The position numbers and the translations under genes are program-made. DNA of 41,918 bases from a virus (taxonomy: Duplodnaviria; Caudoviricetes), in the IMG/VR virus record IMGVR_UViG_3300007255_000002, positions 1 to 41,918 of that record; one strand, given 5' to 3'. Shown piece by piece: positions 1 through 41,918 of the stretch; the first letter of the stretch is position 1, and each line of letters starts with the position of its first letter. The notes under the pieces were generated by a model that saw only the letters and a list, made by a program, of their open reading frames with translations, had not been told where the DNA came from and did no database searches.

Positions 1-185
1 GCGGCGGCGGCGTCGGCGGCGTCGGCGGCGGCGTCGGCGGCGGCGGCGGCGGCGGCGTCGGCGGCGGCATCGGCGGCGTAGGCGGCGGCGGCATCGGCGG
101 CGGCGTAGGCGGCGTAGGCGGCGGCATTGGCGGCGGAGGCGGCGGCGGCGTCGGCGGCGGCGTAGGCGGCGGCATTGGCGGCGGA
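1..185 (-). repeat. GCC-codon low-complexity repeat encoding poly-Ala punctuated by D/Y/N/S
   Basis: Directly visible (GGC)n on the + strand with GTC/GTA/ATC/ATT interruptions. Confidence 0.95.
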
Positions 186-542
186 TTGTGCTTTACGTAC
201 CTGCTCAAGCGTCGCCTTGCCGCGTAGCCACGATCGGGTGATCTGGATGGCATCACTTGGGCGTTTGTCGTGTGGATATTTCTTGTGCCAGATCGGCAGA
301 GCAGTGGCAGCGCAGTCGCATGTGAGCGCGATTATTAGCTTTCGATCCGCATCGCGTTTGTGAAGAAGCCACAACATCCAATCCGGCCGTTTGCACGCAT
401 CCCAGGCGGCCTGCATTGAGTCGAAACCGCGCGCCCAGGCCAGACCGTCGGCACAAGGCCCGTGTTTCACGAGTGTCTTAGTCCAAGCCTTTCTGGCTGC
501 GCGCTTCGCAGCGCGCGTCACGGCTTTCGTGAGCGGTGTCAT
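1..542 (-). CDS. Imm5-like domain protein with Ala-rich repeat tail (3'-truncated by window edge; absent from ORF track)
   Basis: ATG at 542 overlaps the TGA of the upstream ORF. Translation MTPLTKAV...KHGPCADGLAWA...DWMLWLL...LTCDCAATALPIWHKKYPHDKRPSDAIQITRSWLRGKAT...SAANAAAYAAADAAA is open to position 1. The DCA..LP...D.RP..AI....W..G pattern resembles Imm5-like domains. Confidence 0.75.
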   Translation of the reverse strand, partial: MTPLTKAVTRAAKRAARKAWTKTLVKHGPCADGLAWARGFDSMQAAWDACKRPDWMLWLLHKRDADRKLIIALTCDCAATALPIWHKKYPHDKRPSDAIQITRSWLRGKATLEQVRKAQSAANAAAYAAADAAAASAANAAAYAAYAAADAAAAYAADAAADAAAAAAADAAADAADAAA

Positions 543-748
543 CGGCAACGCTCCGGGATCAGCGACCACTCCGTGTCCTTCACCGCCTGAGCTACACAAG
601 CGTCCCAGACTGCCCCAGGATCGACGATCTCCCCATGGGCTAAGAGTCTCACCGTCTCCCGGTTGAAAGCCTGAGCGGCGCGAAGTGAGACCGCTTGCCG
701 GCGCTTCGGGTCATGCCGGCGCTCGTTGAAGTCCAAGGCAGCGCTCAC
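539..748 (-). CDS. small hypothetical protein
   Basis: 69-aa ORF with GTGA/ATGA start-stop overlaps on both sides. Confidence 0.6.
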   Translation of the reverse strand: MSAALDFNERRHDPKRRQAVSLRAAQAFNRETVRLLAHGEIVDPGAVWDACVAQAVKDTEWSLIPERCR

Positions 749-1390: not shown

Positions 1391-1993
1391 GGGAAAAGAG
1401 AGAGCAGTGAGTGTGCCGGGCGTAAGTGCTTGTCGGGCCGCGGCGCCAGTCTCGTGAGCCATGCATGACGCGACCGCCGCAACGGCACAACGCATGAAAG
1501 GCTCAAGGACGGCTCAGGAGGCTCGATCTCTCCCGCGTGGCGCTAGGGACTCCCATCGTGGGAGAAAGTCTCTCCTAGGGGAAGCTAGGTCCCTTGCGTG
1601 GCGCTATGGCTCATGGCGTTGCGCACATGCCGGCGGCCGGGACGGATCAAGGCTTTCCTGCATATGCAACACCTCACGGTTCTAGGCGCTACAGCACCGA
1701 GGATGCCAGAGACTCAAGGACTAAAGGTTGTGACTAGCCGTGTCTGGTTTGACACGTGTCTCTCCTGCCACGTTACGAGCATGTCTACGGAAACCGTAAA
1801 CCTACCAAGGTGTGTCTATGCTGACACACTGATTCTATGCCTTACCGGTCTACACGCCACTCAGCGCCACAACGACTTACAGCCGCTTACAGCTGTAGCT
1901 AGCCAGGCCAAGCCGGGCCGGGCCCCCCGCGGCAAAAGCGGCTTCGGCGAGAGCCCCGGACTAGAACTTTGCCCGAAAATTCCAGGAATGAAC

Positions 1994-2990: not shown

Positions 2991-3291
2991 CTCGCAAACC
3001 GCGCCCCTAAGTTTCTTTAGAGCCGAGGTAGTTAAACTTCTGGACCGCGCCTCCCGCTCGCGCGTCAGCTTCCATGAGCGCTTAGCCCTCGCCCGGCTCC
3101 GAGACCGAGTAGCCAGTGGTGAATCCCTCGGAGCGCTCGAACTTCCGCCTCTACGCTACGCCCGCGGCTTGCTCATGGCCTTGGGCTGGGCCGCCGAAGC
3201 CGAAACTACCTTCGACGAAGCATGGCGTCAGGAGTGCCTAGCCGAGTTCGAGTCATGGCGCCGCTGGTACCTAAGGACTCTTCAGCCGTGA
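2973..3291 (+). CDS. hypothetical protein
   Basis: C-terminal part of ORF 2851..3291 starting near MEKGHN (start approximate); GTGA overlap with the next gene. Confidence 0.5.
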
Positions 3292-3548
3292 AACTCTCAA
3301 CCCGCCCCGATAAGATGGCCCGCCAGCTTCGGGCGCTCGGATTCAAGGGTGAGCGAGGGATCTCATGTTCATGCCCCCTGGCGCGGTACTACGAGAGGTT
3401 GCTCGGGCGCGTGGTCTACATCACGGGGCGTTTGCTCTACGCCCTGGACCCGGACGGCGACTTGCTCGTCCAGCCGCTCACCGACTCCGAGTTCGAGTTC
3501 TCCACCCGCTTCGATGCCGGCGCCTACCCGTTCCTAGTCTCCCGCTAG
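3288..3548 (+). CDS. hypothetical protein
   Basis: GTG start overlapping the upstream TGA; G.KGERG...CPLARY...FD.G.YP.L pattern of a recurrent phage hypothetical family. Confidence 0.6.
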   Translation: MKLSTRPDKMARQLRALGFKGERGISCSCPLARYYERLLGRVVYITGRLLYALDPDGDLLVQPLTDSEFEFSTRFDAGAYPFLVSR

Positions 3549-8171: not shown

Positions 8172-9906
8172 CCGCCACTGGAAGAGCCGCAAGCACCAGG
8201 ACGAGAAGACTACCTGGGCCTTCCAGGCCGAGATCGATATTCTCAGGGACTTGTGCCGCAAGGACTTCTGGACGTTCTTCCTCTACGCCTTCGGCGCCGG
8301 AGTCAACCCCAAGGGCAAGAACTGGATCGAGCCCGAGATTCACAAACCGATCGCGACTTGGTTCCAAAAGCACGTCGATGAATGGTTCGAGAACCGCCGC
8401 TACGGTCGCAAGGAGCAAAAGCACTTAGCCCTCTTGATCCCTCGCGGCATGGGTAAGACGACGATGGGCCAGGCGCTCCAGTTGTGGCTACACCTGAGAG
8501 ATCCGGAGATGTCGAGCTACACCGGCTCGGAGCGTACCGACTTGTCCCAAAAGATCCTGGGCGGCATCAAAGCTGTCTTGGACGGCTCCGATCCCTATGC
8601 TCTGTTCCCGACGCTCTACGGCAACTGGTCCACTCAAGCTCGAAGCTGGACCGGCAAGGAAGTCACCCACGCCGCGCGCAAGAATACTTCGAGGAAAGAT
8701 CCGAGCTTCGGCACCTTCGCGGTCGAGACGTCCATCGTCGGCGCCCACCCTGATGCTTGGATCGAGGACGATCCCAACTCCTACGAGCGCATGCAGTCGG
8801 ACACCAACTGGCTCGCCACCGTCAACTCTCAAGTCTCCAGCATGTTCCCGGTGATCCAGGCTGACGGCCTAGTCATATGGCTCGGCACGCGGTACGACGA
8901 CGACGATCACTTCGGCGTGGCATTCCGTGATGAAGGCGTTGCTTCCCTCGAAGGGATGGAAACCGACTCTATCGTCGTCGATCCGGACGGCAAGTGGAAC
9001 GTCTACTTCCTAGCCGCAAGAGACAAGGACGAAAAGCCCATCTCGACCAAGGTGTGGCCCGAGAAACTGCTGAAGGACTACCAACGCAAAGATCCGTTGC
9101 GGTATGCCGCGCAGGTGATGAACGATCCGGCGATCTCGGAGTTCAATCCGATCACCCGCGATCAGATTCAGCAGTGCGGCGTCGAGTCGAAAGACGTCCC
9201 GTGGAGCTCGATGCGATTCGCGATCTGCTTCGATACCGCCTTCGCCCATGGCGAGCGCCGGGTCTCCAAGGACGAGACGACGTTCATCGTCCACGGCTAC
9301 CCTCGGAGCGGTTCAGGTGACGTCTACATTTGTGAGGTCTGGGGGAGCCCGACTTGGCGCGCCGAGGACTTCTGTAACCGGATCGTCGCCAAGGTGCAGT
9401 CCTATCGAGGCGCGGGAAAGAAAGTGTCCGCCCTCGCCGGAGACGCCTTCGCTTCGGGTGGACGTTCGGGATCGTTGGAACTTGCCTTGAGGAACTACTT
9501 CAACGATGCTGGCCAGCCGATGCCCACGCTCTATGAGTACAACCGCAACAAGGTGGGGCAAGAGAAGATCACCCGCATCGTCAACGCCGCGACGTTCTGG
9601 GTAGACGGCCATGTCAGGTGGGTGAAGGATTCGCCTAACCCAAAGGGCATGAATGACCTGATTGAGCAGATGGCCAAGATCGGGCAGATGATGGTGAACC
9701 GCCGCATGAAGGACGACTACGTGGACGCCCACGCCGACGCCTTCCAGCCCGAGCTTTACCAGCCGATGCGGCGTAAAAGCAAGAACGTCGCCCCCTGGGA
9801 GCGTGGTGCCACCGCCTTTGAAGTCGAAGGGCTGGATAGCCGCATGTTCGAGAACGACGAGTTCCGCGAGTGGAGCAACGCCAACCCCCGAGAACCCTTG
9901 AAGTAG
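8152..9906 (+). CDS. terL: terminase large subunit
   Basis: Walker A LIPRGMGKTT, Walker B GAHPDAWIEDD, GTRY motif, RNase-H fold ICFDTA and DDYVDA. Confidence 0.92.
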   Translation: MSLPSLSRHWKSRKHQDEKTTWAFQAEIDILRDLCRKDFWTFFLYAFGAGVNPKGKNWIEPEIHKPIATWFQKHVDEWFENRRYGRKEQKHLALLIPRGMGKTTMGQALQLWLHLRDPEMSSYTGSERTDLSQKILGGIKAVLDGSDPYALFPTLYGNWSTQARSWTGKEVTHAARKNTSRKDPSFGTFAVETSIVGAHPDAWIEDDPNSYERMQSDTNWLATVNSQVSSMFPVIQADGLVIWLGTRYDDDDHFGVAFRDEGVASLEGMETDSIVVDPDGKWNVYFLAARDKDEKPISTKVWPEKLLKDYQRKDPLRYAAQVMNDPAISEFNPITRDQIQQCGVESKDVPWSSMRFAICFDTAFAHGERRVSKDETTFIVHGYPRSGSGDVYICEVWGSPTWRAEDFCNRIVAKVQSYRGAGKKVSALAGDAFASGGRSGSLELALRNYFNDAGQPMPTLYEYNRNKVGQEKITRIVNAATFWVDGHVRWVKDSPNPKGMNDLIEQMAKIGQMMVNRRMKDDYVDAHADAFQPELYQPMRRKSKNVAPWERGATAFEVEGLDSRMFENDEFREWSNANPREPLK

Positions 9907-9914
9907 GAGCAAGG

Positions 9915-11126
9915 ATGCAAGTCTTCAACGCCAAGGAAGGCACCGTCGAAACTCGCGAGCAAGCCGTCTACGCGCGCCGGACTACCTGCCGAGGATGCGC
10001 CTCAAGGCTCCTACGGCCCATCCTGAGCCTCGGCGAGCAGTACCTGGTGCGTTTCCCCAAGTTTCCCGACTTCGGGCTTCCTAAGGCACCCTTGGACTTG
10101 GTGCGTTGCGACGAGTGCGGGCTCCTGCAACTAGGGACGAGCGTCTACCCCGACTTGCTCTTCCGCGAGTTCTGGTACCGCACGAGCATCAACGACTCCA
10201 TGCGGGCGGCGATGGACGACTTGGTGAGGCACGGCCTGGAGTACCAGCGTTACGGCACCTGGCTCGATATCGGTGCCAACGACGGCTATTTGCTGAGCAA
10301 GGTTCCCCACGACTTCTCAAAGATTGCCGTAGAACCCGCGGTGAACATGAAGGAACAGCTTGAGAAGGTTGCCGGCCGAGTGATTTCAGACTACTTCGAC
10401 GGCGCCACACTCGACCGTAAGTGCGACGTCATCACCTCCGCCGCCATGTTCTACGACGTGGAAGATCCCGGCACCTTCCTCGATGGGATCTACGCTTGTC
10501 TCACCAAGGACGGGGTGTGGATCAACCAACTGAACGATGCCCCTACGATGTTGAAAACCAATTCTTTCGACGCTTTGTGCCACGAGCACCTGTGCTACTA
10601 CGACGTCCCGACACTCAAGCGCATGTACGAAGCGCACGGACTGGTTCTGACGGATGTCCGGTTCAACGACGTCAACGGCGGCAGCGTCCGCACCGTGGCG
10701 AAGAAGAAGGGCGAAAAGGCTGATATTCTTGGGCTTCCGCAAGCGAGCCTCGAAGAGTGTGAAGGCTTCGCCAGGCGTATCGTGAAGTGGCGCAGCGTGA
10801 TGACGGACTTGGTGAGAAGCCTCTCAACCTCGGGGCCGCTGTGGGCTCTCGGAGCTTCCACCAAGGGCGCGGTACTGATGCAGTACCTGGAATGCGCGGA
10901 TGCGTTCGAGGCGGTGGCCGATAGAAATCCTGAGAAAATCGGGCGCCACATGGTGGGAAGCTGGCTTCCGATCAAGAGCGAGGCGGACTTGAGACGCGAA
11001 CGTCCGAGGTTTGGGGTGGTGCTGCCATGGGCGTTCCGAGACGAGATCCTGAGCCGGGAGAAGGATTTGCGCGGCCACGGGACAACGCTCGTTCTGCCGC
11101 TACCGAACATCGAGTTCGTGATATGA
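9915..11126 (+). CDS. NDP-hexose C-methyltransferase-like SAM-dependent methyltransferase
   Basis: Zn site CRGC...CDECGLLQL, LDIGANDG, FDALCHEHLCYY, GASTKG, VLPWAFRDEI (Methyltransf_13/14 architecture); start revised to ATG 9915 after AGGAG. Confidence 0.9.
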   Translation: MQVFNAKEGTVETREQAVYARRTTCRGCASRLLRPILSLGEQYLVRFPKFPDFGLPKAPLDLVRCDECGLLQLGTSVYPDLLFREFWYRTSINDSMRAAMDDLVRHGLEYQRYGTWLDIGANDGYLLSKVPHDFSKIAVEPAVNMKEQLEKVAGRVISDYFDGATLDRKCDVITSAAMFYDVEDPGTFLDGIYACLTKDGVWINQLNDAPTMLKTNSFDALCHEHLCYYDVPTLKRMYEAHGLVLTDVRFNDVNGGSVRTVAKKKGEKADILGLPQASLEECEGFARRIVKWRSVMTDLVRSLSTSGPLWALGASTKGAVLMQYLECADAFEAVADRNPEKIGRHMVGSWLPIKSEADLRRERPRFGVVLPWAFRDEILSREKDLRGHGTTLVLPLPNIEFVI

Positions 11127-11299
11127 CAATCACCGTAGTTCTCAAACGTGGGCGGATGACCACCTTCGACGGGGCGACGCTGACTCCGCCGACCTTCACC
11201 ACGCCCTACTACCTAGTCGAGACTCGTAACGGACGTACCGACTACTTCGCCGCCGACGCCATCGAACAGATCACCGTCATCAAACCTGTTGCCGATTAG
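11123..11299 (+). CDS. small hypothetical protein
   Basis: ATGA overlap; MTITVVLKRGR...KPVAD. Confidence 0.6.
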   Translation: MTITVVLKRGRMTTFDGATLTPPTFTTPYYLVETRNGRTDYFAADAIEQITVIKPVAD

Positions 11300-11307
11300 G
11301 AGGATTT

Positions 11308-11460
11308 GTGGAGAGAAGTCTCGCCAAGCTCATCAAGGAGCTGGACACTCGCCCACCCACCGTGGAAGAGATCAAGACGCTGATTGCCACCATCGTAGGC
11401 CAGGACAAGCAATCGAAGATCGAGGCCCTCGCCAAGCGCCTGAAGGTCCTCCGAGGCTAG
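11308..11460 (+). CDS. 50-aa hypothetical protein (absent from ORF track)
   Basis: AGGAGG RBS, GTG start, MERSLAKLIKELD...KRLKVLRG. Confidence 0.6.
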   Translation: MERSLAKLIKELDTRPPTVEEIKTLIATIVGQDKQSKIEALAKRLKVLRG

Positions 11461-11462
11461 AA

Positions 11463-12059
11463 GTGCCGCATAAGCAAGTCGCGCCCAACCACACCCTCTC
11501 CGATATGATTGCCAAGTATTTTGACACCGGCTACGTCGGGCATGCGATCGACGTGGGGGCATCGGATGGGATATCCGTCAACACCACGTTCGGGCTGGAG
11601 AAGACGCGGCGGTGGACGGTGCTGTCGGTCGAGCCCAATCCTGAGTTCTGGCCGGTGCTGACGGCCACGAGAGCATTCGTCGAGAAGTGCGCGTGTTCCA
11701 ACTTCACCGGCCAGGCCACACTCCACATCAACCGCGAGATCCCGGAGGCTTACTCGACGATCGGCCCCCGCCCCGATGGCCACGCGGTAGGCTATGCGCT
11801 GTGGGACGCCGCCGAAGTCCGGGTAGACACGGTGGAGAACCTGCTCTCTAAGTGGAGGTTCCCGAAACTGGACGTGGTGTGCGTAGACGTTGAGGGGACG
11901 GAACGCGACGTGATGGAGGGCGCCAACCTCGAACTCTGGAAGCCGAAGGTGGTGGTGCTGGAGTCATGGGAGCCCAACACGCATGATCCCTACATGGCCG
12001 AACGCGGCTACCGACCCGTTACCAGGCTCATCCACAACGATCTATTCGTTCGGGCATGA
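11463..12059 (+). CDS. FkbM-family methyltransferase
   Basis: IDVGASDG...VEPNP...VDVEGTE..V.EG; start revised to GTG near 11463. Confidence 0.88.
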   Translation: MPHKQVAPNHTLSDMIAKYFDTGYVGHAIDVGASDGISVNTTFGLEKTRRWTVLSVEPNPEFWPVLTATRAFVEKCACSNFTGQATLHINREIPEAYSTIGPRPDGHAVGYALWDAAEVRVDTVENLLSKWRFPKLDVVCVDVEGTERDVMEGANLELWKPKVVVLESWEPNTHDPYMAERGYRPVTRLIHNDLFVRA

Positions 12060-12748
12060 ACGGCCGGGTCGCCGTGTTGTGCCCCAGCCGGGATAATGCT
12101 GATGGTGTCTGCCGTTTGGCTAGGAACATCTCAGCGACCACCAACCGCTCGGACCTGCTGATCTACGCCGACGAGGACCAGTTTGGCGACTACCACGACA
12201 AGTGCAGTCATGAGACCTGGCAAGTGCGGAGCAAAGTTACACTGGTCAAAGGGCCGAGGATAGGCCCCGTCCCCGCCGCCAACGACTTGGTCAAGTTCTA
12301 CCCCGACTACGACCTCTACGGCCTGATTCCCGACGATGCGACGGTCAAGACTCCGGGCTGGGACGAGTGGTGCCTGAGCGCGGTAAGAATGTTCCCTAAC
12401 CGGGTGGGGGTGATTTCCCCCGCTCACAGCTTAGGGCTTCATGTGGACATGCCGTTCGTCTCCAACGGCTGGGTCAAGGCCACCGGCTGGTTTGCCTGCC
12501 CCGAGATGTACCACTACGCTTGGCCACTCCTGACCGGCATCATCGGTGAAATGACGGCCATTCTTCACGCCCCCGAGACGGCATTCCTAGTTGAGCACGA
12601 TGGCCACATGCCGGCCAACCAAGGAAGACGGAGCGAAGACGCCGAGGTATTTCTGGCCTTCGTCGCTACCTCGCTGCCGGGAGTCGTGGAACGTCTGAGA
12701 TCGAGCATGGCTCCAAAGGAGGCAAGTCCTGAACACAACTGTATTTAG
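12056..12748 (+). CDS. GT-A fold (GT2-like) glycosyltransferase
   Basis: VAVLCPSR, YADED, G...AAN, IPDDA (DxD-like), WDE motifs. Confidence 0.7.
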   Translation: MNGRVAVLCPSRDNADGVCRLARNISATTNRSDLLIYADEDQFGDYHDKCSHETWQVRSKVTLVKGPRIGPVPAANDLVKFYPDYDLYGLIPDDATVKTPGWDEWCLSAVRMFPNRVGVISPAHSLGLHVDMPFVSNGWVKATGWFACPEMYHYAWPLLTGIIGEMTAILHAPETAFLVEHDGHMPANQGRRSEDAEVFLAFVATSLPGVVERLRSSMAPKEASPEHNCI

Positions 12749-13583
12749 CTTTCCAGGTAAGGCCGGCGATGCGATCCACGAGTGGCCGATCGCCTACTGG
12801 TGGGCGCGCGAGAACAAGAAGCGCTTCACCTGCTGGATGGACGAACGGAGCACCAGGATCGTTGCCCCGCTATTCGCCGCCCAGCCGTGTGTGGAGAAGG
12901 TGGAGTTCAAGCCCGGGATCGAGGGCTATCAGTGCGGGGGCCAGCCTTTTCATTTCGATCTGGCGCCTGGAGACTACGAAGGCCGCACCGTCCATCACCT
13001 GGGCTTCCGGAATTTCCCGCAACGTCAGTTGACGATCGAGACGCTGGAGAACTGCGGGCTGGGCCTCAACGTGGATCAAGAGACACTGGCCGAAGTCCCG
13101 AGCATCGAGGCGCCGGGAGAAGCTCCCGGCTTCTCCTCGGAGGATAGGATCTGTCTGCTCCACGGCCAAGCGGTCTACTCCAACACCAAGGGGACGCCCA
13201 AGTTCTGGATGTTCCTATCGGACATCGCCCCGGAACTAGAGGAACGCTTCAACCGCATTGTATTCGTTGGCAGTGAGCGCGACCGCGAAGTCGGTGCCCG
13301 GATCTACCCTGCTTGGGAGACCTTCGACGATCATGGCAGTTTCCTAGAATTAGCCCGGCTAATGAAGTTCGCCAAGCTGGTGGTCGGGTGCGGTTCTTCG
13401 GTGGTGTCGCTGGCCGGGGTGCTCAAGATTAACTCGGTGCGTGTCCACGACGAGATTGGCAGTCATCCTAAGGTTCTATGGTCCAACCTCCAGAAGAACC
13501 ACCTGAACCTGACCGAGCCCGAGCTACGCACTCAGTGGAAGTCGTGGCGTAACCATTGGTTGGACGAGGTGCCGGTTGTCTGA
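12729..13583 (+). CDS. GT9/heptosyltransferase-like GT-B glycosyltransferase (probable CTG start)
   Basis: N-terminal FSFPGKAGDAIHEWP in frame upstream of ATG 12837; C-terminal FLELARLMKFAKLVVGCGSS..SLAG.L typical of GT9. Confidence 0.72.
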   Translation: MNTTVFSFPGKAGDAIHEWPIAYWWARENKKRFTCWMDERSTRIVAPLFAAQPCVEKVEFKPGIEGYQCGGQPFHFDLAPGDYEGRTVHHLGFRNFPQRQLTIETLENCGLGLNVDQETLAEVPSIEAPGEAPGFSSEDRICLLHGQAVYSNTKGTPKFWMFLSDIAPELEERFNRIVFVGSERDREVGARIYPAWETFDDHGSFLELARLMKFAKLVVGCGSSVVSLAGVLKINSVRVHDEIGSHPKVLWSNLQKNHLNLTEPELRTQWKSWRNHWLDEVPVV

Positions 13584-19263: not shown

Positions 19264-19486
19264 AGCGGCGATCGTCAAGCGGAAGCCGGTAATCGGCCGA
19301 GTCGGAGGCTACGCTGCTCCGGTAGACACCGTAGGGATGGATGAGGACATGAAGGCGCAGATGACCGGCACGCCCATGAACAAGACCGAGGCGGCCTACG
19401 TCAGCGGCACCAAGCGTCCGAGTGCCGTGGAAGCAGTGAAGCGGGCGCGCAAGGCCAATAAACAGCCATTGCTGAAGCCTCAATGA
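19256..19486 (+). CDS. small basic hypothetical protein
   Basis: ORF track; overlaps both neighbours. Confidence 0.6.
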   Translation: MARAAIVKRKPVIGRVGGYAAPVDTVGMDEDMKAQMTGTPMNKTEAAYVSGTKRPSAVEAVKRARKANKQPLLKPQ

Positions 19487-20781
19487 GCGAGCCGCTAACG
19501 ATCTACACGGCCATCCCTCACGGGGCCTCGGCGAGCTACTACTACCGCTTGACGGTGCCGATCAAGACCGCGGTGGAGTTGGGTTTGGGTATCCGGGCGG
19601 TGGTGGATACCAACGACATGTCGATCCCGCCCGAAGCCCGGATTCAGAACTTCTGCGAGTCGGACGTGGTGCTGATGTACCAGCCGGTGGGCGATGTGCC
19701 GATGGCCAATATCCGCGGGGTGCAGAGCTTCATCCCCTCGAAGCGCGATGGGAAGTGGAAGTGGCCGCCCACGGTGATCTGCGAGACCGACGACAACCTG
19801 TTCAACGTCTCGCCTCTGAACCCGGCATTTAAGAACCTGGGGTTCCGTGACTTGGAGGGCAAGGACATCCCGCCCGGGCATGAGATTGGCGGCATCCAGA
19901 ACGGGGAGCGAAAGATCTACTGGCGGGACGGCGAGGCGGGGTTCGACATCCGCCGCAATCGCCAGATGCTGATGGGCTACCGCCATATCTTGTCGATGGT
20001 GGATGCGGTGACGTGCTCGACCGAAGCCGTTAAAGACTCGGTCTTGAAGGAATGCACCCCCCGCCGGGCGAAGGTATTTCCCAATTTGGTGAGGTTCAAC
20101 GACTACGAACAGGTGGACTTGAAGGAGTCGGAGAAGATCAAGATCCTCTGGCAAGGCGGGGCCGCCCACTTCGAGGACTGGTACCCCCTAAGAGAAGCCT
20201 TGGGCAACATCACCAAGCGCTATCCTCAAGTCCACTGGATCATCTGGGGGGCTCAGTACCACTGGGTAAATGAACTAATGCCGCCCCATCGCTACATCTA
20301 CAAGGACTGGTGTCCCTATAACGAATACCGGCTGAGACTCGCGACCATCGGCCACGACATCGCCCTAGCTCCGCTCCAGGAACATGTGTTCAACCGCTGC
20401 CGGAGTGCCATTAAGTTCTATGAAGCGGCAGTCTTGAAAAAGCCGGCGGCAGTGCTGGCGCAGAACTCCGGAGCCTACAAGCACGAGGTTCAGGACGGCG
20501 AGACGGGGCTGCTGTTCAACGATCCCGAGGAGTTCGAGGCCAAGCTGAGCCTCTTGATCGAAGACACTGCGGAGCGTAAACGGCTCGCGGCCAACGCCAA
20601 GGACTGGGTATCAGAGAACCGCGACGCCCGGAAGAAGGTGCCGGAGTGGGTAGCTTACTGGCGCCAGTTGAGGGAAGACCGCAAGCGCGAGCAGCCGCAC
20701 GTCTCGGACGCTGAGTGGCTGGAGATCGAGGCTGAGGCGACGCGCGAGCAGGAACAGCAAGAGGCCGCAGTAGCCACATAA
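19483..20781 (+). CDS. GT-B fold (GT4-like) glycosyltransferase
   Basis: YYRL.VP, ETDDNL, DAVTCST, WQGGAAH..D, DIALAPL...FNRCRSAIKFYEA, DGETGLL. Confidence 0.88.
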   Translation: MSEPLTIYTAIPHGASASYYYRLTVPIKTAVELGLGIRAVVDTNDMSIPPEARIQNFCESDVVLMYQPVGDVPMANIRGVQSFIPSKRDGKWKWPPTVICETDDNLFNVSPLNPAFKNLGFRDLEGKDIPPGHEIGGIQNGERKIYWRDGEAGFDIRRNRQMLMGYRHILSMVDAVTCSTEAVKDSVLKECTPRRAKVFPNLVRFNDYEQVDLKESEKIKILWQGGAAHFEDWYPLREALGNITKRYPQVHWIIWGAQYHWVNELMPPHRYIYKDWCPYNEYRLRLATIGHDIALAPLQEHVFNRCRSAIKFYEAAVLKKPAAVLAQNSGAYKHEVQDGETGLLFNDPEEFEAKLSLLIEDTAERKRLAANAKDWVSENRDARKKVPEWVAYWRQLREDRKREQPHVSDAEWLEIEAEATREQEQQEAAVAT

Positions 20782-24234: not shown

Positions 24235-26114
24235 GACGCTTCGTTCCGCTTCAGCCCAGCACCATGCCGCCGCTCGACGATCAGACGGCGCAGCCCTGGA
24301 TCATCGAGCGCTTCTTCCGCATCCAGCACTTCCTCGAAGACTCCCAAGCCGCTTTCCAGAGAATCACCTTAGGCCAGGCTCCCAACGGTTCAGGGGACTC
24401 GATTCCGGTGGGTTTCGCGGGGTTGCTCAAGGACTACCTCTACCTCCCAGGACGCACCGCTGAGGGCAACACCGTCATCGGGCTCGACGCCAGTCCATCG
24501 GTAGTAATCCGGAGCGGCGGGGACCCTCCCGTCGATGGGGCTCTCGGCAATCCCCCGCTACGGCTGAGCATGGGGGCCACGGGACTTCTGGACTTCCGTC
24601 CCTTTAACTTCGGCGGGACGTTCGAGGTGGCCCTTACTGGACCTACGGGCGCCGGACTCCCGGTCTTCTTCCCGTCCTCCGATGGGACCTCGGGCTTTCG
24701 CATCACCTCGACCACCAATCGGACTTTCCTCCAGTGCGGGCTGAGACTCATCAGTGGGAACGTCCAGAACGACTCGATGACGGTAGGGGCGGCGGGGGCA
24801 CGAGTCGGGACTACGATCGCCTACGAGTTCAAGAACATCACCATGAGCAACTCGTCTTCACAGATGGGGGACGGTTCAGCGATCACGGTCGGAACCACGA
24901 GGGTTGGGGTTGGAGTGCGTCCTGACGACTATAGTGGTGCGGGCTGGGCAGTGCCGTTTGTGGCGCGGTCGACCCAAACCAGCACTCCGGCGATCAATGG
25001 CGAGGTGAACGCCGACTTTGCCGCTGCCATCGGAGTTGCGCTCCGTGCTCCCAGCACCGGATTCTCTCCTAACAAGGTGCTAGGCCCGATTCTAGCGACG
25101 CTGGAGGAAGACCGCACCAACACCACCTATGGGAGTTTCGGACTCTACAACTCCGGGACATGGCGCGGAAGTTTGACGCTTCAATCGGCGGGCGGGGCTG
25201 ACCGCTTGACGTTGGTGGACGGTTCGAGCCGGCTTCTTTACCAGGGAGTGGTGGCGGCGGCGTTTGCCGACTCGGCTTCAAGCACCGTGGAAATCTTCGG
25301 CGATACTCAGTCCTCGAACCGTCACGTCACGCTCTCTTCGGCAGGAGGTAACAAGTTCAGTCGGCTTGGCATCTCGGCGACCAGCGTCATTCTGGGCCCG
25401 GCCACTATCGGAGTGCTTCCGGCGCCGGTTTCGAGTCGGATTCTGACGGTCGTGGATGCTACCGGAGCAGTGCTGGACTACGTTGGGCTCAACGGCGAAC
25501 TCTCGATTACTCCCAATGCGGATGTCATCTCGCTGCTGGTTCAACCGAGTACGGGGGCTGTTTCTCAGACTTTTCAAGTCAACGACGATGCTTCTGTGGC
25601 GGCATTTGCGGTTAAAAATGATCCCGGCGATCTGACCCAAAGCGTTTTTTGCCGCCGCTTGAGGATTGACAATAATACCGGGATCGCGGGTGGAACTAGT
25701 GCGATCCTCAATACCTCCGGCATCATTACTGCTGATCGGACTTTTTCTTTTCCGGACGCCAATGGCCAGTTCCTAATCCGAGTCGGAAGCGTCGCGGTAG
25801 CACCTCGGACCACCGCCACCAGCGGAACCATCATCACCACGGCACTCAACGCTTCTCCATCTACCTGGCTCATCAATGGCTACGGCAACTGTACGGTGGC
25901 CGGAACCGGAAACGTTCAGGTTAGCATATTGTTTACCGACAATGTCGGAGCCAAAACCCTGGTAGCGGCGACCATCGACATGACCACTACCACCAATCCC
26001 ACCGGGACCTTTAGCGTTGCGGTTCGCACTGCCGCCGCAACGGCTATCACCTATTCCACTACCGTCGTCACTACCGGGACTTACAGCTTGGTCATTCGTG
26101 GGAGCCAGCTCTAA
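24231..26114 (+). CDS. tail fibre/spike-like protein
   Basis: 627 aa Gly/Ser/Thr-rich; TADRTFSFPDANG motif. Confidence 0.65.
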   Translation: MRRFVPLQPSTMPPLDDQTAQPWIIERFFRIQHFLEDSQAAFQRITLGQAPNGSGDSIPVGFAGLLKDYLYLPGRTAEGNTVIGLDASPSVVIRSGGDPPVDGALGNPPLRLSMGATGLLDFRPFNFGGTFEVALTGPTGAGLPVFFPSSDGTSGFRITSTTNRTFLQCGLRLISGNVQNDSMTVGAAGARVGTTIAYEFKNITMSNSSSQMGDGSAITVGTTRVGVGVRPDDYSGAGWAVPFVARSTQTSTPAINGEVNADFAAAIGVALRAPSTGFSPNKVLGPILATLEEDRTNTTYGSFGLYNSGTWRGSLTLQSAGGADRLTLVDGSSRLLYQGVVAAAFADSASSTVEIFGDTQSSNRHVTLSSAGGNKFSRLGISATSVILGPATIGVLPAPVSSRILTVVDATGAVLDYVGLNGELSITPNADVISLLVQPSTGAVSQTFQVNDDASVAAFAVKNDPGDLTQSVFCRRLRIDNNTGIAGGTSAILNTSGIITADRTFSFPDANGQFLIRVGSVAVAPRTTATSGTIITTALNASPSTWLINGYGNCTVAGTGNVQVSILFTDNVGAKTLVAATIDMTTTTNPTGTFSVAVRTAAATAITYSTTVVTTGTYSLVIRGSQL

Positions 26115-32684: not shown

Positions 32685-33266
32685 TCACGTTACACTCCCA
32701 TCGAGGTGTTCTCTTACCTTTCTGGGGCGGCCACGCTTTTTAGGTGGCGGAGCGGAAGGACCTCTGCTGTCGCCAGGACCCGCGTCGTTACCAAGCGCGG
32801 ACTCCGCCACCTTCTTCTTCCGAACTCGCTTCCGAGTGAGCCCGAGCTCGGCAAACTGCTCGTCTAGGGTACGGCGCATCGCCCCCAAGACGACCGCCAC
32901 CACTTTACCCCGCTCCACCTCGTTGAGCGTCACCGGCCGCTGACGGTAAAGGGCCGAGATATCTGTCACCACCAACTCGTGGGCGTTGATCCACTCCGCC
33001 ATGGCTTGAAGGCCGCTAGGAGCCTCGCTGGGAGGCTCGGGCCAGGGCACGGGTCCAGAACCAGGCTCGGGGTAGATCGTGGCTTCTGACTCATCTGGGA
33101 GCGGATCAGGCAACAGGTCGAAGGCGTCCCGTTCCAAGTCGTCAGGGTCTGGCAGTTCAGGGGCTACGGACAATAGATTTGGCGCGGCGTCGATGATTCC
33201 GGGGTCGGGCATGGCTGGCAGTCCTTGCATTCGGCGGATCTCAGCTAGACGGTCGCTGTCGCTCAC
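32685..33266 (-). CDS. hypothetical protein with acidic Pro-rich N-half and AT-hook
   Basis: KKRGRPRK near the C-terminus; AGGAG RBS. Confidence 0.7.
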   Translation of the reverse strand: MSDSDRLAEIRRMQGLPAMPDPGIIDAAPNLLSVAPELPDPDDLERDAFDLLPDPLPDESEATIYPEPGSGPVPWPEPPSEAPSGLQAMAEWINAHELVVTDISALYRQRPVTLNEVERGKVVAVVLGAMRRTLDEQFAELGLTRKRVRKKKVAESALGNDAGPGDSRGPSAPPPKKRGRPRKVREHLDGSVT

Positions 33267-33433
33267 GTGGTCTCCTGGATGGCGCGCTCGACTTCTTCGC
33301 GAACGATGGTCTCGACGCGGGCGCGAATTATGGCTCTCAAGTTAAGCGAGCCGTTGAGCTTGCGTTTCTGGGCCAGAACTCTCCGAGCTTTAGCCAACTA
33401 CTTGCGTTTCTTCTCCAACAGTTCTTTGGTCAT
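33263..33433 (-). pseudogene. 56-codon basic helical gene interrupted by in-frame TAG at codon 12
   Basis: AAGGAG RBS, MTKELLEKKRK*LAKARRVLAQKRKLNGSLNLRAIIRARVETIVREEVERAIQETT-TGA overlapping the next GTG. Confidence 0.7.
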
Positions 33434-33456: not shown

Positions 33457-33529
33457 GGGGCCCGGCTTGTAGCACTCCCCCGTCTGGCTCACGCCTTCTG
33501 CTCTGCGCTCGCCAGGCTAACCGGGCCCC
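33457..33529 (-). other. structured RNA-like stem-loop
   Basis: GGGGCCCGGTT pairs with AGCCGGGCCCC (one GU pair), enclosing an inner CTGGC/GCCAG stem. Confidence 0.55.
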
Positions 33530-33536
33530 TAAGATT

Positions 33537-33953
33537 ATTCCTTGCCGTACCTCGCCCTGCATCGCCATGCCGAAGCTCGCCCAGCTCCTTGCCTTTCCTG
33601 ACCAGACCCCGCCAAAGCCGGCCTAACCATGCTCCTCGCCTTTCCTTGCGGCGCCAAGCACCGCCATGCCAGGTCATGCTCCGCCATGCTCCTTACCTCG
33701 CCTATCCGAGCCACGCCACGCCCAACATCGCCGGACCCAGCGGTGCCGCACCCAGCTCCCTGCCTCACCTAACCGCACCCTAGCCGACCACACCCATCCA
33801 GACCGTACGGCGCGTTGCCCCGCATTGCCTAGCTCCTTGCCCTTCCTCACCGTGCCTTGCGATGCGTCACCACGCGGCACCCGGCCAAGGCCGGCTCCTT
33901 GCCTTGCCGCTCCTAGCCCCACCTAGCCGTGCCACACCGAGCCGCACCGGACT
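33537..33953 (-). repeat. phased degenerate pentamer array (GGHNN)n punctuated by GGCAAGGAGC-like junctions
   Basis: Junctions (+ strand GCTCC) at 33537 (ATTCC), 33584, 33631, 33688, 33755, 33832, 33894; 74 pentamers, 56 ending in CC by hand count. Confidence 0.92.
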
Positions 33954-34800
33954 AACGTGGATGGCATAACCTCTTCCAACTGCAATAGTTACACGGCCAG
34001 TTCGGGCAACTTCGATAGGCCACTGGAACGCCCGGGTCTAGCCCATTCTTGGCGTCTTGCATGGCTTGACCCAGAATCTTCAGGTCTTCCTCAGCCCCGT
34101 CTTTGTCGTAATTTACGGTCCAGACATGGAATAGAGGCTCGCCCTTCGTCGCACCCGAGGCGCAATACACCAGTCGAGCCTTTGCCTGGGTTGGGCGCGG
34201 GATTTTATTCTGAGCGGCGGCGTGTAGATACCCATTGCACTGCTTACGATACGGGTCGTCGGTATCCGGTCCACCTCGCTTTAACATCCATCCTAAAGCC
34301 CTGCTGTTCTTGGTCTTGAGTTCCCAAAGTTCCCGTGGATCTAGGCCCTGAATTGCCTCCCGCAAATTCTCAGGAATTTCCAGGAGCAGGTCTAGGCGGC
34401 CGGTGATCTTCTCGCCGTCGCTCTCCAGTTCCACGCGCTCTTGAGCCAGGATGGTGACACCGGCCGCTTCCAAGAGCTTGATGTAGAGGCTTTCGGCCAA
34501 CTTGCCGATGTTCAAGGTCATCCACGAATCCAAGGTCAGCGGTTCGGTCTGCGGCGTATTCGTCAGCGAGAAGTAGATCTGGCGCGGGCACCGGCCGCTA
34601 TCCGAGACGTAGGCGTTGGTTTTGAACTCCTTCCCTTCGGCGCGCCTCGCCTCGGCCTCAGCTTCGAGTTGCCGCGCCAGCCCGTACTCCAAAAGGGCTC
34701 GTACCGGAGCGATGGCGTCGCCGGAGCCATGCTCACGGACTACTTCGGAAAGGTGACGCTGCTGCGGCTGCCAGGACTGCGGCAGAGTCACGCCGGCCAC
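33952..34800 (-). CDS. Cas4-like PD-(D/E)XK exonuclease with Fe-S cysteine set
   Basis: SDSGRCPRQIYF, GRLD, WELKT, QCNGY, C-terminal CNYCSWKRLC. Confidence 0.85.
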   Translation of the reverse strand: MAGVTLPQSWQPQQRHLSEVVREHGSGDAIAPVRALLEYGLARQLEAEAEARRAEGKEFKTNAYVSDSGRCPRQIYFSLTNTPQTEPLTLDSWMTLNIGKLAESLYIKLLEAAGVTILAQERVELESDGEKITGRLDLLLEIPENLREAIQGLDPRELWELKTKNSRALGWMLKRGGPDTDDPYRKQCNGYLHAAAQNKIPRPTQAKARLVYCASGATKGEPLFHVWTVNYDKDGAEEDLKILGQAMQDAKNGLDPGVPVAYRSCPNWPCNYCSWKRLCHPR

Positions 34801-35301: not shown

Positions 35302-35708
35302 GGCTCCACTCCGTAGCGCTGCGCCTCCTGAATGAGATAGAGCTTCTCTAGTTTACGATCGAATTTGCCACCGGGCCTGAATACGGTCCACACCAGCCGT
35401 TCCGGGAACTTGTCTCCGAACCACCTCACCGCTTCGATGGGTCGGTGGTGCCACAGCAGATGGCAGCCGCTACAGAGCCGCAGCGAGTTCTCCAACCTCC
35501 ATCGGGAGGACAGATAGCGCCGGGAGTTGACGTGGCACCACTGGCCCTGATCGGCGCGTCCGCACCTCTGGCATACCGGATCGCGGGCAAAGACGATCTT
35601 CCGCGCCAGGGCGTCTAGGGCCTTCTTCCAGTAAGTGCCCTTCGCTGCGGACCGGAGTCGGGTCTTTCTCTGGGGGGCCGGTGATTTCTTCAAGGCGGTA
35701 CGCTTCAT
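35298..35708 (-). CDS. NinG/Rap-like HNH recombination nuclease
   Basis: LDAL..IV..RD..CQRCG...CH..SRRY.S.RW..EN...LC.GCH. Confidence 0.82.
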   Translation of the reverse strand: MKRTALKKSPAPQRKTRLRSAAKGTYWKKALDALARKIVFARDPVCQRCGRADQGQWCHVNSRRYLSSRWRLENSLRLCSGCHLLWHHRPIEAVRWFGDKFPERLVWTVFRPGGKFDRKLEKLYLIQEAQRYGVEP

Positions 35709-39914: not shown

Positions 39915-40210
39915 CGTTTGCTCTTGAGTAATACCCGCAGAGCCGGGTCATCGAGCTTGATGACTGAAACCGCCGCAGCGATGCGAGCTTGTTCCTCGTA
40001 ATAGGCCTCTCGCCACGGTTTTTCGCCTTCTTGGTAGGTTGCCCACTTTTCGCATGACTGTCTCAGGAGCTTAGCTAGCGGCTCCAGAAGTCGATGGACG
40101 TCGTTGCAGGCGTAGTTGGCGGATGCCGAGCCCCACAGGATTCGACGGGCCTGGATAAAAGATTCCACCGCATTCCGCCATTCGTCGGCCTCGACGTAGG
40201 CCATGGTCAC
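39911..40210 (-). CDS. hypothetical protein
   Basis: GTG start overlapping the upstream TGA. Confidence 0.6.
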   Translation of the reverse strand: MTMAYVEADEWRNAVESFIQARRILWGSASANYACNDVHRLLEPLAKLLRQSCEKWATYQEGEKPWREAYYEEQARIAAAVSVIKLDDPALRVLLKSKR

Positions 40211-40929
40211 ATCCCCATCCTTTCCTGGAGTTCCCCCATCGCGCACATACGTCTGACCAGATCTTGAGCCGAAAACTGGAGCCGTTCCACGGTGAGCTTC
40301 AGAGCGTCCTCGGCAGCGACCCCGACAGCGGCTCCGGCAGCGTCCCAGGCAGCGGCTCCGGCAGCGTTTCCGGCAGCGGCCCCGACAGCATCCCCGGCAG
40401 CGTCCCAGGCAGCGACTCCGGCAGCGGCCCAGACTCCGGCAGCGTCCCAGGCAGCGGCTCTGGCAGTGACCAGGGCAGCGGCCGAAGCTTCACGAGCAGC
40501 TTGAAATATGGGCAGCCAAAGGCCGATCGAATCGGCGTCGATCTCCGGCAACACACGCAAGGTTTGGGCGTGTGGTGCGAGCGCGGGCGTTAAATCCATC
40601 CACGCCGTGGCATTCTCGCGCACCAACCAGTCGAAGGCCATCCATGAGCGCCGCCGCTCCACGGCGGAAGTGCTGCGCGAATCTACTAGGATGTGGATCA
40701 ATGGTTTGAGTAGGCGGTCCCGGGTGGCATCATCGGGCAGCGAATCGTTCCAATTGACCATGAATTGAGTGATGACCGGGCATGCACATCGCGGCGCGGC
40801 CGACCACGACTCTCCGGCCACGTAGGCCACTACCTCCATGACACAAAACTGTTTCTCGATTTCTTGGTGATAACCTTTCTTCAAGTTCAGCGCTTCAAGG
40901 AACGGCCCGTTGCGAACGATCGGCGTCAT
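40207..40929 (-). CDS. Ala-rich tetrapeptide-repeat protein bracketed by 19-bp direct repeats
   Basis: L.KG.H...CVME..AY.AGE.WS..P.C.CPVI...WND domain plus AA(G/W/R)(A/D/V) repeats at about 40302-40483. Confidence 0.8.
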   Translation of the reverse strand: MTPIVRNGPFLEALNLKKGYHQEIEKQFCVMEVVAYVAGESWSAAPRCACPVITQFMVNWNDSLPDDATRDRLLKPLIHILVDSRSTSAVERRRSWMAFDWLVRENATAWMDLTPALAPHAQTLRVLPEIDADSIGLWLPIFQAAREASAAALVTARAAAWDAAGVWAAAGVAAWDAAGDAVGAAAGNAAGAAAWDAAGAAVGVAAEDALKLTVERLQFSAQDLVRRMCAMGELQERMGM

Positions 40930-41516
40930 CGCGGCGGAATCCTTTCCTGGAGTTCCCGGTCAGTGACCACATCGAAGTCCGGCTCGGAATCACTAGGCTC
41001 TACGTCGAAAGGATCTATGGCTGCCTCCAACTCAGAGCCGCTGACAGGCGTGGTTTCATCGGAATCTCGTTGGTCCTGAGTACCGAACCAACCATTAGCA
41101 GCCAGGAAAACATTTGCCTCCATGAGGGCCGCGAAATGCTCCGGCTTCATTACCACGGCGCATTTGTCGCACTTGAAGTCGCCTTCGCATGGCGATGAGG
41201 CGGTGGTCGCCAGTCGTCCCAAGATACTGACAAGTGTCGTGACCTTGGCTTCGGCCATTCGTGCGCGGTCCAATGCCTCCATAAGCCGTAGAGCCCCTTC
41301 CCATGCTATAGGTTCGGCAGTGGCTCGCAATGCGGCGACCATCGCAGTTGAATCGTTAACCTTTTCCTGGTTTCTAAAAGCGGAGTCCATTTCCGGCTCC
41401 TTTCCCGTTCCCTTACAGCGGTCGCATTCCACCTCGATGGTATCTCCCGGATCTCCGTGGTAGCTCCGACGCTTGAGCATGGTCCCTTGGCCTAGACATA
41501 GGATGCACTCGCTCAC
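40926..41516 (-). CDS. DnaJ-type Zn-finger (CxxCxGxG x2) protein with SGSELEAA module
   Basis: CILCLGQG and CDRCKGTG; GTG 41516 overlaps the upstream TGA. Confidence 0.7.
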   Translation of the reverse strand: MSECILCLGQGTMLKRRSYHGDPGDTIEVECDRCKGTGKEPEMDSAFRNQEKVNDSTAMVAALRATAEPIAWEGALRLMEALDRARMAEAKVTTLVSILGRLATTASSPCEGDFKCDKCAVVMKPEHFAALMEANVFLAANGWFGTQDQRDSDETTPVSGSELEAAIDPFDVEPSDSEPDFDVVTDRELQERIPPR

Positions 41517-41918
41517 GATTTGACCTCGCACATGCGTCTAACCAAGTCCTGAGCCGAAAGCTGTAGGCGTTCGATGGTGGGCTTTAGGGCGGCCCCGGCA
41601 GCGTCCCAGGCAGCGGCCCAGGCAGCGTCCCTGGCAGCGTCCCTGGCAGCGGCCCCGACAGCGGCCCCGGCAGCGGCCCCGACAGCGGCCCCGGCAGCGG
41701 CCCTGGCAGCGTCCCTGGCAGCGTCCCTGGCAGCGGCCCCGGCAGCGTCCCCGGCAGCGGCCCAGGCAACGTCCCTGGCAGCGGCCCCGGCAGCGGCCCC
41801 GGCAGCGGCCCCGGCAGCGGCCCCGGCAGCGGCCCCGACAGCGGCCCCGGCAGCGGCCCAGGCAGCGGCCCCGGCAGCGACCCTAGCAGCGGCCCCGGCA
41901 GCGTCCAAGGCAGCGGCC
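41513..41918 (-). CDS. Ala-rich tetrapeptide-repeat protein, paralogue of 40207..40929 (5'-truncated)
   Basis: Open to the window edge; C-terminus LKPTIERLQLSAQDLVRRMC vs LKLTVERLQFSAQDLVRRMC. Confidence 0.8.
   Translation of the reverse strand, partial: AAALDAAGAAARVAAGAAAWAAAGAAVGAAAGAAAGAAAGAAAGAAARDVAWAAAGDAAGAAARDAARDAARAAAGAAVGAAAGAAVGAAARDAARDAAWAAAWDAAGAALKPTIERLQLSAQDLVRRMCEVKS
41590..41918 (-). repeat. 12-bp tandem repeat GCTGCC-NGG-GNC (~27 units)
   Basis: Directly visible; variation concentrated at unit positions 7 and 11. Confidence 0.95.

What the first reader, a model, noticed from the sequence alone, without database searches (positions are those of the whole stretch)
33537..33953. 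Phased pentamer array with 5n+2 punctuation, fused to the stop codon of a Cas4-like nuclease gene
Seen: about 420 bp parse without gaps into 7 blocks of 8, 8, 10, 12, 14, 11 and 11 pentamers. The + strand consensus is NN[G/A/T]CC: 56 of 74 pentamers end in CC, the rest keep one C, and position 3 is never C. Blocks are separated by a conserved GCTCC(T)TGCC-like junction that shifts the phase by 2 nt, giving junction spacings of 47, 47, 57, 67, 77 and 62 bp. On the transcribed (-) strand this reads (GGHNN)n-GGCAAGGAGC. The array begins at the TAG of the Cas4-like gene, and no reading frame spans it. The GG scaffold is conserved while the NN positions are fully diversified, which is unlike simple slippage and suggests selection on spacing. 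Inference: a non-coding functional element with a repeat/variable-spacer layout. Options include a binding track for a ring-shaped RNA/ssDNA-binding protein (TRAP binds 5-nt-periodic repeats), stacked two-tier G-quadruplexes (GG-N3), a CsrA/RsmA sponge (ANGGA at the junctions), or a recombination/replication landmark acted on by the adjacent nuclease.
Basis: partly seen in the sequence, partly recalled or inferred. Interest (0 to 1): 0.85.

Follow-up and report, generated by a model that had tools for sequence, protein, structure and literature searches.

The report
Orphan VIPR guides aimed at kin
This five-base repeat is a seven-guide array of the VIPR type (a CRISPR-related phage gene silencer described in 2026) in a phage where no partner protein was found, and its first guide spells a site in the neighbouring nuclease gene as related phages carry it but not as this phage does, so it likely borrows a relative's protein to silence rivals while sparing itself.

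Summary
It is a VIPR guide-RNA (vrRNA) array on the minus strand, (GGYNN)n-GGAGC-NN. A two-base junction of this kind occurs in 45 of 80 viral loci carrying a vipr gene. A related phage (L132) has vipr, an accessory gene and a ten-block array with identical GGAGC+2 junctions. This 98%-complete phage has no detectable vipr, so the array is orphan. It is an insertion: 0 of 11 relative loci have it after their Cas4-like gene. Read with the published one-base-skip code, guide 1 matches the Cas4-like gene of relatives at 16/16 core bases in three lineages and 15/16 in four more, with skips on wobble positions. The phage's own allele matches 11/16 and is most diverged at this spot. The nuclease is therefore the predicted target in rivals, not the partner. 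No target was found for guides 2-7. Expression, the helper protein and silencing are untested. Orphan vrRNAs are in print; a guide against the kin allele of the adjacent gene was not in the texts I read.

The parts
33535..33953 (-). Orphan vrRNA array: 7 guide blocks, each (GGYNN)n plus a 7-base GGAGC-NN junction
   Evidence: same junction in L132; two-base junction in 45 of 80 vipr loci
33892..33953 (-). Guide 1 (11 units + junction). The first 8 units (33953-33914) end at an internal GGAGC and decode to the antisense strand of the Y-P-Y-V-T-D-A-G codons of relatives' Cas4-like gene
33830..33891 (-). Guide 2 (11 units); no target found
33753..33829 (-). Guide 3 (14 units); no target found
33686..33752 (-). 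Guide 4 (12 units); no target found (7 exact 16-base hits in viral contigs, none extends well)
33629..33685 (-). Guide 5 (10 units); no target above shuffles
33582..33628 (-). Guide 6 (8 units); no target above shuffles
33535..33581 (-). Guide 7 (8 units, ends GGAAT); no target above shuffles
33952..34800 (-). Cas4-like PD-(D/E)XK exonuclease gene (282 aa). Its stop overlaps guide 1; its orthologues in relatives are the predicted target of guide 1; probable source of read-through transcription (inferred)
34595..34626 (+). The phage's own copy of the guide-1 site (codons F59-G69): 11/16 core and 14/22 overall; the most diverged stretch of the protein against its clade
33457..33529 (-). Predicted GC-rich stem-loop just 3' of the array (z -2.2); possible end or stabilising element, untested
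   Evidence: no Rfam match
33263..33433 (-). Small ORF with a good ribosome-binding motif but an internal TAG (33398-33400); part of the same ~685-base insertion; no homologue in the loci held

Best explanation
The repeat is an orphan VIPR guide array inserted directly behind the phage's Cas4-like gene, and its first guide, read two bases per unit with one base skipped, matches that gene in related phages but not in this one, so it likely loads onto a Vipr protein made by a co-infecting relative and would silence rival copies while sparing its own. Shown by calls: the GGY/NN grammar and junction shared with vipr-bearing phages; no detectable vipr here; vipr genes in three relatives; the guide-1 match and its dependence on a one-base skip; the wobble alignment; the diverged own allele. 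From the VIPR papers: one Vipr subunit holds each GGY and presents NN to double-stranded DNA, and binding represses transcription. Inferred: the array is co-transcribed with the Cas4-like gene; the GGAGC pentamer (purine at position 3, which the Vipr pocket excludes) plus the two-base shift ends one filament and starts the next; Vipr comes in trans; silencing the exonuclease harms the rival's replication or recombination; guides 2-7 aim at elements not in the sequence I could search.
For: Grammar: 68 of 74 units have a pyrimidine at position 3 and 50 of 74 are exact GGY. A pattern built from the junction found 5 viral loci; 4 of the 5 encode a protein matching profile A1, which hits SUSP1 Vipr, PDB 36pp, at E 3e-17. 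Of 80 vipr loci (not dereplicated, four are the contigs), 79 have GGYNN blocks, 45 have two-base junctions (194 of 240 close block pairs), and 48 start a block within 50 bases of the vipr stop. Relative L132 (terminase 55% identical) has vipr (PDB 36pp E 3e-5; model pLDDT 89 whose top fold matches are chains of Csm complexes), an accessory gene and 10 blocks with 9 GGAGC+2 junctions. No vipr in the window with two profiles and five single queries. Guide 1: best hit in 2.5 Mb was the relative's Cas4-like gene, 19/22; 300 order-shuffles on that genome reached at most 18; core 16/16 with skip 1 against 13, 13 and 14 with skips 0, 2 and 3, and at most 14 in 50 shuffles. Expected chance count 7.5e-6 for that genome, 2e-4 after allowing 4 sub-windows and 7 guides. 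16/16 in L105-L109 (3 lineages) and 15/16 in L110-L114 (4 lineages); skipped bases are third codon positions and vary among targets; own site 11/16. The six most diverged 8-residue windows of 275 in the phage's own protein overlap this footprint, replacing R, E, Y, P and A residues that are 95-100% conserved in 20 clade members.
Against: Six of seven guides have no target above shuffles in the own genome, the relatives or the vipr loci. Guide 1's last three units match poorly (19/22 at best; 17/22, below the paper's 80% cut-off, in L108), and the 8-unit core was recognised after the match was seen. Two of the own substitutions (R to K, E to T) lie where the guide does not match relatives either, so escape from guide 1 cannot explain all of the divergence. 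G001, which has both vipr and a 16/16 site, uses a different, staggered array type, so it may not load these guides. G004 has a 16/16 site but no vipr. L132's Cas4-like gene lies outside the DNA held. No reciprocal targeting of this phage by G001's guides. The contig is linear, 98% complete and cut inside genes at both ends, so a vipr in the gap, or one too divergent to detect, is not excluded. Across 470 guides the skip-1 excess is modest: 11 hits against 1-7 in shuffles. No promoter consensus near the array.
Confidence: 0.72

Rival explanations
1. A VIPR array that is no longer used: a captured or leftover piece whose protein was lost, now decaying; the guide-1 match records past function only.
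For: No vipr in the window; 18 of 74 units lack GG, more than in the main vipr clade (about 7% of 3335 units); the small ORF behind the array has an internal stop; six guides have no found target.
Against: The intact system in L132 is as degenerate (24 of 109 non-GG); phase and all junctions are intact; guide 1 still matches living alleles at 16/16. Relatives keep their VIPR cassettes elsewhere in the genome, so this is not a vipr deletion in place.
Confidence: 0.13
2. The array works mainly as a decoy: many guides soak up an invader's Vipr and so protect this phage, and the identity of the targets is secondary.
For: Solo vrRNAs of E. coli satellites blunt a phage's VIPR (10.64898/2026.10.15.759431); seven guides give many binding units; the own allele's divergence could equally be escape from another phage's guide against the same conserved motif.
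Against: In that paper the effect was measured against a non-targeting solo guide, so targeting mattered. Guide 1 here has a specific, wobble-aligned match in a rival gene. No guide of G001 was found to target this phage.
Confidence: 0.08
3. The phage has its own, undetected Vipr (in the missing 2% or too divergent), so this is an ordinary split VIPR system.
For: The record is linear and cut in genes at both ends; Vipr proteins are very diverse (the L111 candidate scores only E 1.6e-7 with profile A5).
Against: Profiles that detect three different Vipr kinds of this phage clade find nothing below E 3 in the window; single queries find nothing below E 0.1; no glycine-loop motif in a coding frame; the gap must already hold parts of two cut genes.
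Confidence: 0.05
4. One reading: a TRAP-like binding track, G-quadruplex, CsrA/RsmA sponge, or landmark cut by the adjacent nuclease.
For: Five-base GG period; 7 ANGGA motifs; abutment to the nuclease stop codon.
Against: None explains why the NN decode, only with a one-base skip, to a gene of relatives, or why such arrays sit beside vipr in 79 of 80 loci. The nuclease occurs without the array in 11 of 11 relative loci. The whole array folds no better than shuffles (z -1.3). Quadruplex formation and CsrA binding were not tested.
Confidence: 0.02

Closest known systems
VIPR systems (Vipr + vrRNA + vap; type II of Escherichia phage SUSP1; bioRxiv 10.64898/2026.04.26.720920 and .720927)
   Same: Alternating GGY/NN units, 8-14 per guide (published 9-16); arrays of several guides beside a gene; one-base-skip code with the skip on the wobble position; antisense target in another phage; no self match at 80%.
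   Different: No vipr or vap found in this phage. Guides abut through a 7-base GGAGC-NN junction instead of a long pseudoknot tail. The texts I read describe tailed, staggered, ribozyme-spaced and single arrays; a two-base junction may be drawn in figures 5A or S17, which I could not see.
Solo/orphan vrRNAs of F5 satellites and vipr-null SUSP1-family phages (bioRxiv 10.64898/2026.10.15.759431)
   Same: Guide without its protein, in a phage family where relatives carry the full system; lower match to self than to rivals.
   Different: Published cases have 1-2 guides left at a vipr deletion or in a satellite, aimed at vipr, vrRNAs, satellites or REP repeats. Here seven guides are inserted at a new site in a soil phage with SU10-type portal and capsid genes, and one aims at the kin allele of the gene next door.
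Marker exclusion by free-standing homing endonucleases such as T4 SegF
   Same: A selfish cassette sits beside a resistant allele of the gene it attacks in co-infecting relatives.
   Different: Those are protein nucleases that cut DNA; this is an RNA guide needing a borrowed binding protein and predicted to repress rather than cut.

Membership tests
vrRNA (VIPR guide RNA) | Tandem pentamers alternating conserved GGY with variable NN, about 9-16 units | tested here: met
   50 of 74 exact GGY, 68 of 74 pyrimidine at position 3, all 16 NN used; 8-14 units per block, two blocks of 8
vrRNA (VIPR guide RNA) | NN specify a DNA target under the one-base-skip rule (at least 80% match), skip on the wobble base | tested here: met
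   Met for guide 1 only: 19/22 (86%) in L105-L107 and L109, core 16/16, skip 1 only. 6 of 7 guides have no target found.
vrRNA (VIPR guide RNA) | No self target at 80% or more | tested here: met
   Best skip-1 match in the own genome is at most 75% for all seven guides; own orthologous site 14/22
vrRNA (VIPR guide RNA) | Invariant 3' tail after the repeat tract (a pseudoknot in type II) | tested here: inconclusive
   A short fixed end GGYRR-GGAGC closes each block and is shared with L132; no long structured tail between guides; one stem-loop after the last guide
vrRNA (VIPR guide RNA) | Expressed as small RNA and bound by Vipr | not testable with these tools
   Needs small-RNA sequencing and a pull-down
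Complete VIPR system | vipr gene (RAMP with thumb and glycine loop) in the locus or genome | tested here: not met
   record 98% complete and linear
Complete VIPR system | vap accessory gene beside the array | tested here: not met
   The vap genes of L132 and G001 have no match in the window. The Cas4-like gene occurs without the array in 11 of 11 relative loci.
Solo/orphan vrRNA | vrRNA with no vipr on the contig or within 20 kb | tested here: met
   As above; criterion from the methods passage of 10.64898/2026.10.15.759431
Solo/orphan vrRNA | Guide end shared with the system of a vipr-bearing relative | tested here: met
   GGAGC+2 junction in L132 (9 of 9 junctions) and L128
Solo/orphan vrRNA | Redirects another element's Vipr in vivo | not testable with these tools
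   Needs co-expression or co-infection

The most novel reading that the evidence does not exclude
The array and the diverged Cas4-like allele form one linked selfish cassette: a protein-free RNA weapon that turns a relative's own VIPR machinery against that relative's conserved exonuclease, while the resistant allele next door travels with it, so recombinants carrying both spread through the phage family (RNA-guided marker exclusion). The two-base shift after a GGA unit may let one unprocessed transcript carry several separate Vipr filaments.
Probability: 0.3. Interest if true: 0.75.

Novelty: new variant of a known kind. Interest (0 to 1): 0.5.

Why it matters
It extends orphan VIPR guides beyond the one enterobacterial phage family where they are published, to a soil phage clade in which three different Vipr kinds are patchily spread. 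It supplies a complete, cheap test set: a candidate helper with the same junction (L132), a natural target found in seven lineages, and a natural resistant allele. That makes trans-use of Vipr, mismatch tolerance and the role of the GGAGC+2 junction directly testable. The kind of system is known, and this scan's own notes hold several similar cases, which caps the surprise.

Tried and rejected
Coding: no frame spans the array, and block lengths leave remainders 2, 2, 2, 1, 0, 2, 2 on division by 3; five small overlapping ORFs match no PHROG. Structured RNA: whole array z -1.3; of the seven single blocks only the last folds better than shuffles (z -2.1); no Rfam match at E 1. No promoter or terminator consensus. 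TAG recoding: 8 of 23 chosen genes end in TAG. Targets for guides 2-7: none above shuffles in the own genome, 80 vipr loci plus four others, relatives (55, 73, 78, 88) or 12 further vipr loci. An exact scan of viral contigs with 9 units of guide 3 gave 0; with 8 units of guide 4 it gave 7, none extending well. These scans allow no mismatch, and guides 2, 5, 6 and 7 were never scanned against a whole collection. Reciprocal targeting: 11 guide blocks of G001 against the window gave nothing convincing; 10 blocks of L132 and 2 of L128 nothing above shuffles. Third guide letter tracking the skipped base: 0-2 of 8 in seven targets. Host: no relative in genome contigs (91, 110) or cultured phages, so unknown. 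Expression: no RNA holder listed; the one DNA run, possibly the source sample, covers 33760-34658 without differences. A single-sequence fold of the L132 protein was unusable (pLDDT 32). The window's ParB-like gene is not the L132 accessory gene.

Full report
Setting. The window is a whole 41.9-kb virus record, linear and 98% complete, with SU10-type portal, capsid and adaptor genes. The array lies on the minus strand behind a PD-(D/E)XK, Cas4-domain gene at 33952-34800. The host is unknown.

From 33953 down to 33535 the minus strand parses into 11, 11, 14, 12, 10, 8 and 8 pentamers, each block closed by a 7-base junction (GGAGC+2 six times, GGAAT+2 last). 56 of 74 units begin GG, 68 of 74 have C or T third, and none has G third. 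Lag-5 CC pairs number 44 against 16.6 +/- 3.5 in 2000 shuffles. No frame spans it. The last NN of every block is purine-purine, so each block ends in a fixed tail.

What it is. A pattern made from the junction found 5 viral loci. Four encode, beside the array, a protein of one family; the fifth array lies 278 bases from its contig end. A profile of that family (A1: 42 sequences, 40 of them picked from the 120 listed) hits the SUSP1 Vipr structure at E 3e-17. I recalled VIPR at this point and confirmed it in the papers: vrRNAs are GGY/NN repeats, NN pair with DNA with one base skipped per unit, and binding represses transcription. Among 80 vipr loci (the best 80 of 97, not dereplicated), 79 have such blocks and 45 have two-base junctions, 194 of 240 close block pairs; the junction pentamer is GGAAC 117, GGATC 33 and GGAGC 10 times. 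48 of 80 start a block within 50 bases of the vipr stop. The 5n+2 punctuation and the abutment to a stop codon are thus the habit of a common vrRNA architecture.

The array is orphan. Two Vipr profiles, five single Vipr queries and two vap queries find nothing in the window, while the profiles detect three different Vipr kinds in its relatives. Both contig ends cut Ala-rich genes, so the missing 2% is a residual doubt.

The array is an insertion and not the nuclease's partner. Eleven relative loci with the Cas4-like gene (63-68% identical, about eight lineages, leaving out the window's own contig) have no array behind it; one, L110, ends about 40 bases later. In G004 the gene abuts the homologue of the downstream 193-residue gene, whereas the window has 685 bases between them.

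Relatives carry the protein. L132 (terminase 55% identical) has vipr, an accessory gene (ParB-like by eye) and ten blocks with nine GGAGC+2 junctions, 24 of 109 units non-GG. Its Vipr hits PDB 36pp at E 3e-5, and its model (pLDDT 89) matches chains of Csm complexes. L128 (57%) shows the end of the same accessory gene and two blocks. G001 (75%) has another Vipr with a staggered array overlapping by one base, and L111 a third candidate followed by a 46-unit run. G002 and G004 (94% and 100% complete) have neither vipr nor array. A second scan for GGAGC junctions gave 9 loci, of which only L128 and L132 hold arrays on this pattern. Of 12 further loci of the L132 Vipr clade, 11 have arrays; most have longer spacers between guides and one (L150) a two-base junction.

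Guide 1 has a target. With a one-base skip, its best match in 2.5 Mb of vipr loci plus four others fell in the 7.8-kb locus of the one close relative, inside its Cas4-like gene, at 19/22. The first eight units match 16/16 and end exactly at an internal GGAGC. 300 shuffles on that genome reached at most 18/22. In the relatives set, skips 0, 2 and 3 give 13, 13 and 14 of 16, and 50 shuffles at most 14. The expected chance count is 7.5e-6, or 2e-4 over 4 sub-windows and 7 guides. An empirical null is looser: 1-7 of 470 shuffled guides get a perfect 16-base hit in 3.8 Mb, against 11 real ones. The site is 16/16 in L105-L109 (three lineages) and 15/16 in L110-L114 (four); L115 lacks it. Skipped bases are third codon positions and differ among targets. 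Seven of 33 homologous proteins carry the exactly compatible peptide.

The phage spares itself on paper. Its own site scores 11/16 and 14/22. Against 20 clade members (13 of 33 with a different motif left out), the six most diverged 8-residue windows of 275 overlap this footprint. Two of those changes lie where the guide does not match relatives either, so escape from guide 1 is not the whole story.

Against the reading. Six of seven guides have no target in anything I could search. The core boundary was seen after the match. No phage examined is shown to have all three of the target, a Vipr and the matching junction: G001 has target and Vipr but another array type, and L132's Cas4-like gene was not held. 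G001's guides do not target this phage. Expression and silencing are untested.

Mechanism, committed. The array is likely transcribed with the Cas4-like gene. In a cell shared with a vipr-bearing relative, Vipr would polymerise on each GGYNN tract and stop at the GGA unit, since the third-base pocket excludes purines. Guide 1 would bind the rival's exonuclease gene and block its transcription. I put this at 0.72; VIPR identity alone at about 0.95.

Literature. 10.64898/2026.04.26.720920: parts 1, 2, 3 and 5 of 6 and passages; its supplement was searched for six terms only, with no hit for GGAAC or GGAGC; figures not seen. 10.64898/2026.04.26.720927: parts 1-2 of 6. 10.64898/2026.10.15.759431: parts 1-3 of 8 and passages; its supplementary tables were not seen and may list more target classes. 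10.64898/2026.10.21.760802: passages only. Two searches: 9 papers, 7 listed; VIPR, orphan, Cas4, phage: 0. Orphan vrRNAs are in print; a guide against the kin allele of the adjacent gene was not in what I read. The scan's own notes, read after the target was found, hold 333 VIPR findings, several with this pattern; they are not independent support and they lower the surprise.

Verdict. Real; a new variant of a known kind; interest 0.5.

Noticed in passing
window 1900-1924, minus strand: A lone run of five GGYNN units, the only other such run in the genome; a mini-guide, a relic or chance.
   Followed up: no
window 33263-33433, minus strand: Small ORF with a strong ribosome-binding motif and an internal TAG at 33398-33400, inside the same insertion as the array; no homologue in loci held.
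   Followed up: partly
G001 1201-1769 and 3248-3287 (L090), about 25400-25475 minus (L091), about 35360-35425 minus (L092): Complete relative with vipr, an accessory gene, a staggered array whose guides overlap by one base, and two solo guides elsewhere in the genome.
   Followed up: partly
L111 5371-6278: A divergent Vipr-like gene (profile A5 E 1.6e-7; no PDB hit) followed by one uninterrupted run of 46 pentamers with no junctions.
   Followed up: partly
L049 9761 to L065 8305 (minus): A guide shared by three loci matches another vipr-bearing phage at 19/20 under the one-base skip, inside a 306-codon frame upstream of that phage's vipr.
   Followed up: partly
L008 2625-2684 (Gordonia phage Trine): A 12-unit GGYNN run behind a Vipr-like gene lies inside the start of annotated gene 40, whose start may be miscalled.
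   Followed up: no
L151, 45-2170 bases behind vipr: About 19 guide blocks in a row behind one vipr gene, an unusually large array.
   Followed up: no
window 1-599, 40207-40929 and 41513-41918, minus strand: Three genes with long Ala-rich low-complexity repeats; two are paralogues (PHROG 18326), and both contig ends fall inside such repeats.
   Followed up: partly
window 9870-13583 and 19483-20781: Two methyltransferases, two unknown genes and a glycosyltransferase sit within the packaging and head module, suggesting virion or DNA modification.
   Followed up: no
window 33520-33529; L128 about 256-265; L132 about 3284-3292: A short GC-rich motif just behind the array appears in opposite orientation in the window and in the two relatives with GGAGC arrays, each within a predicted hairpin.
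   Followed up: no
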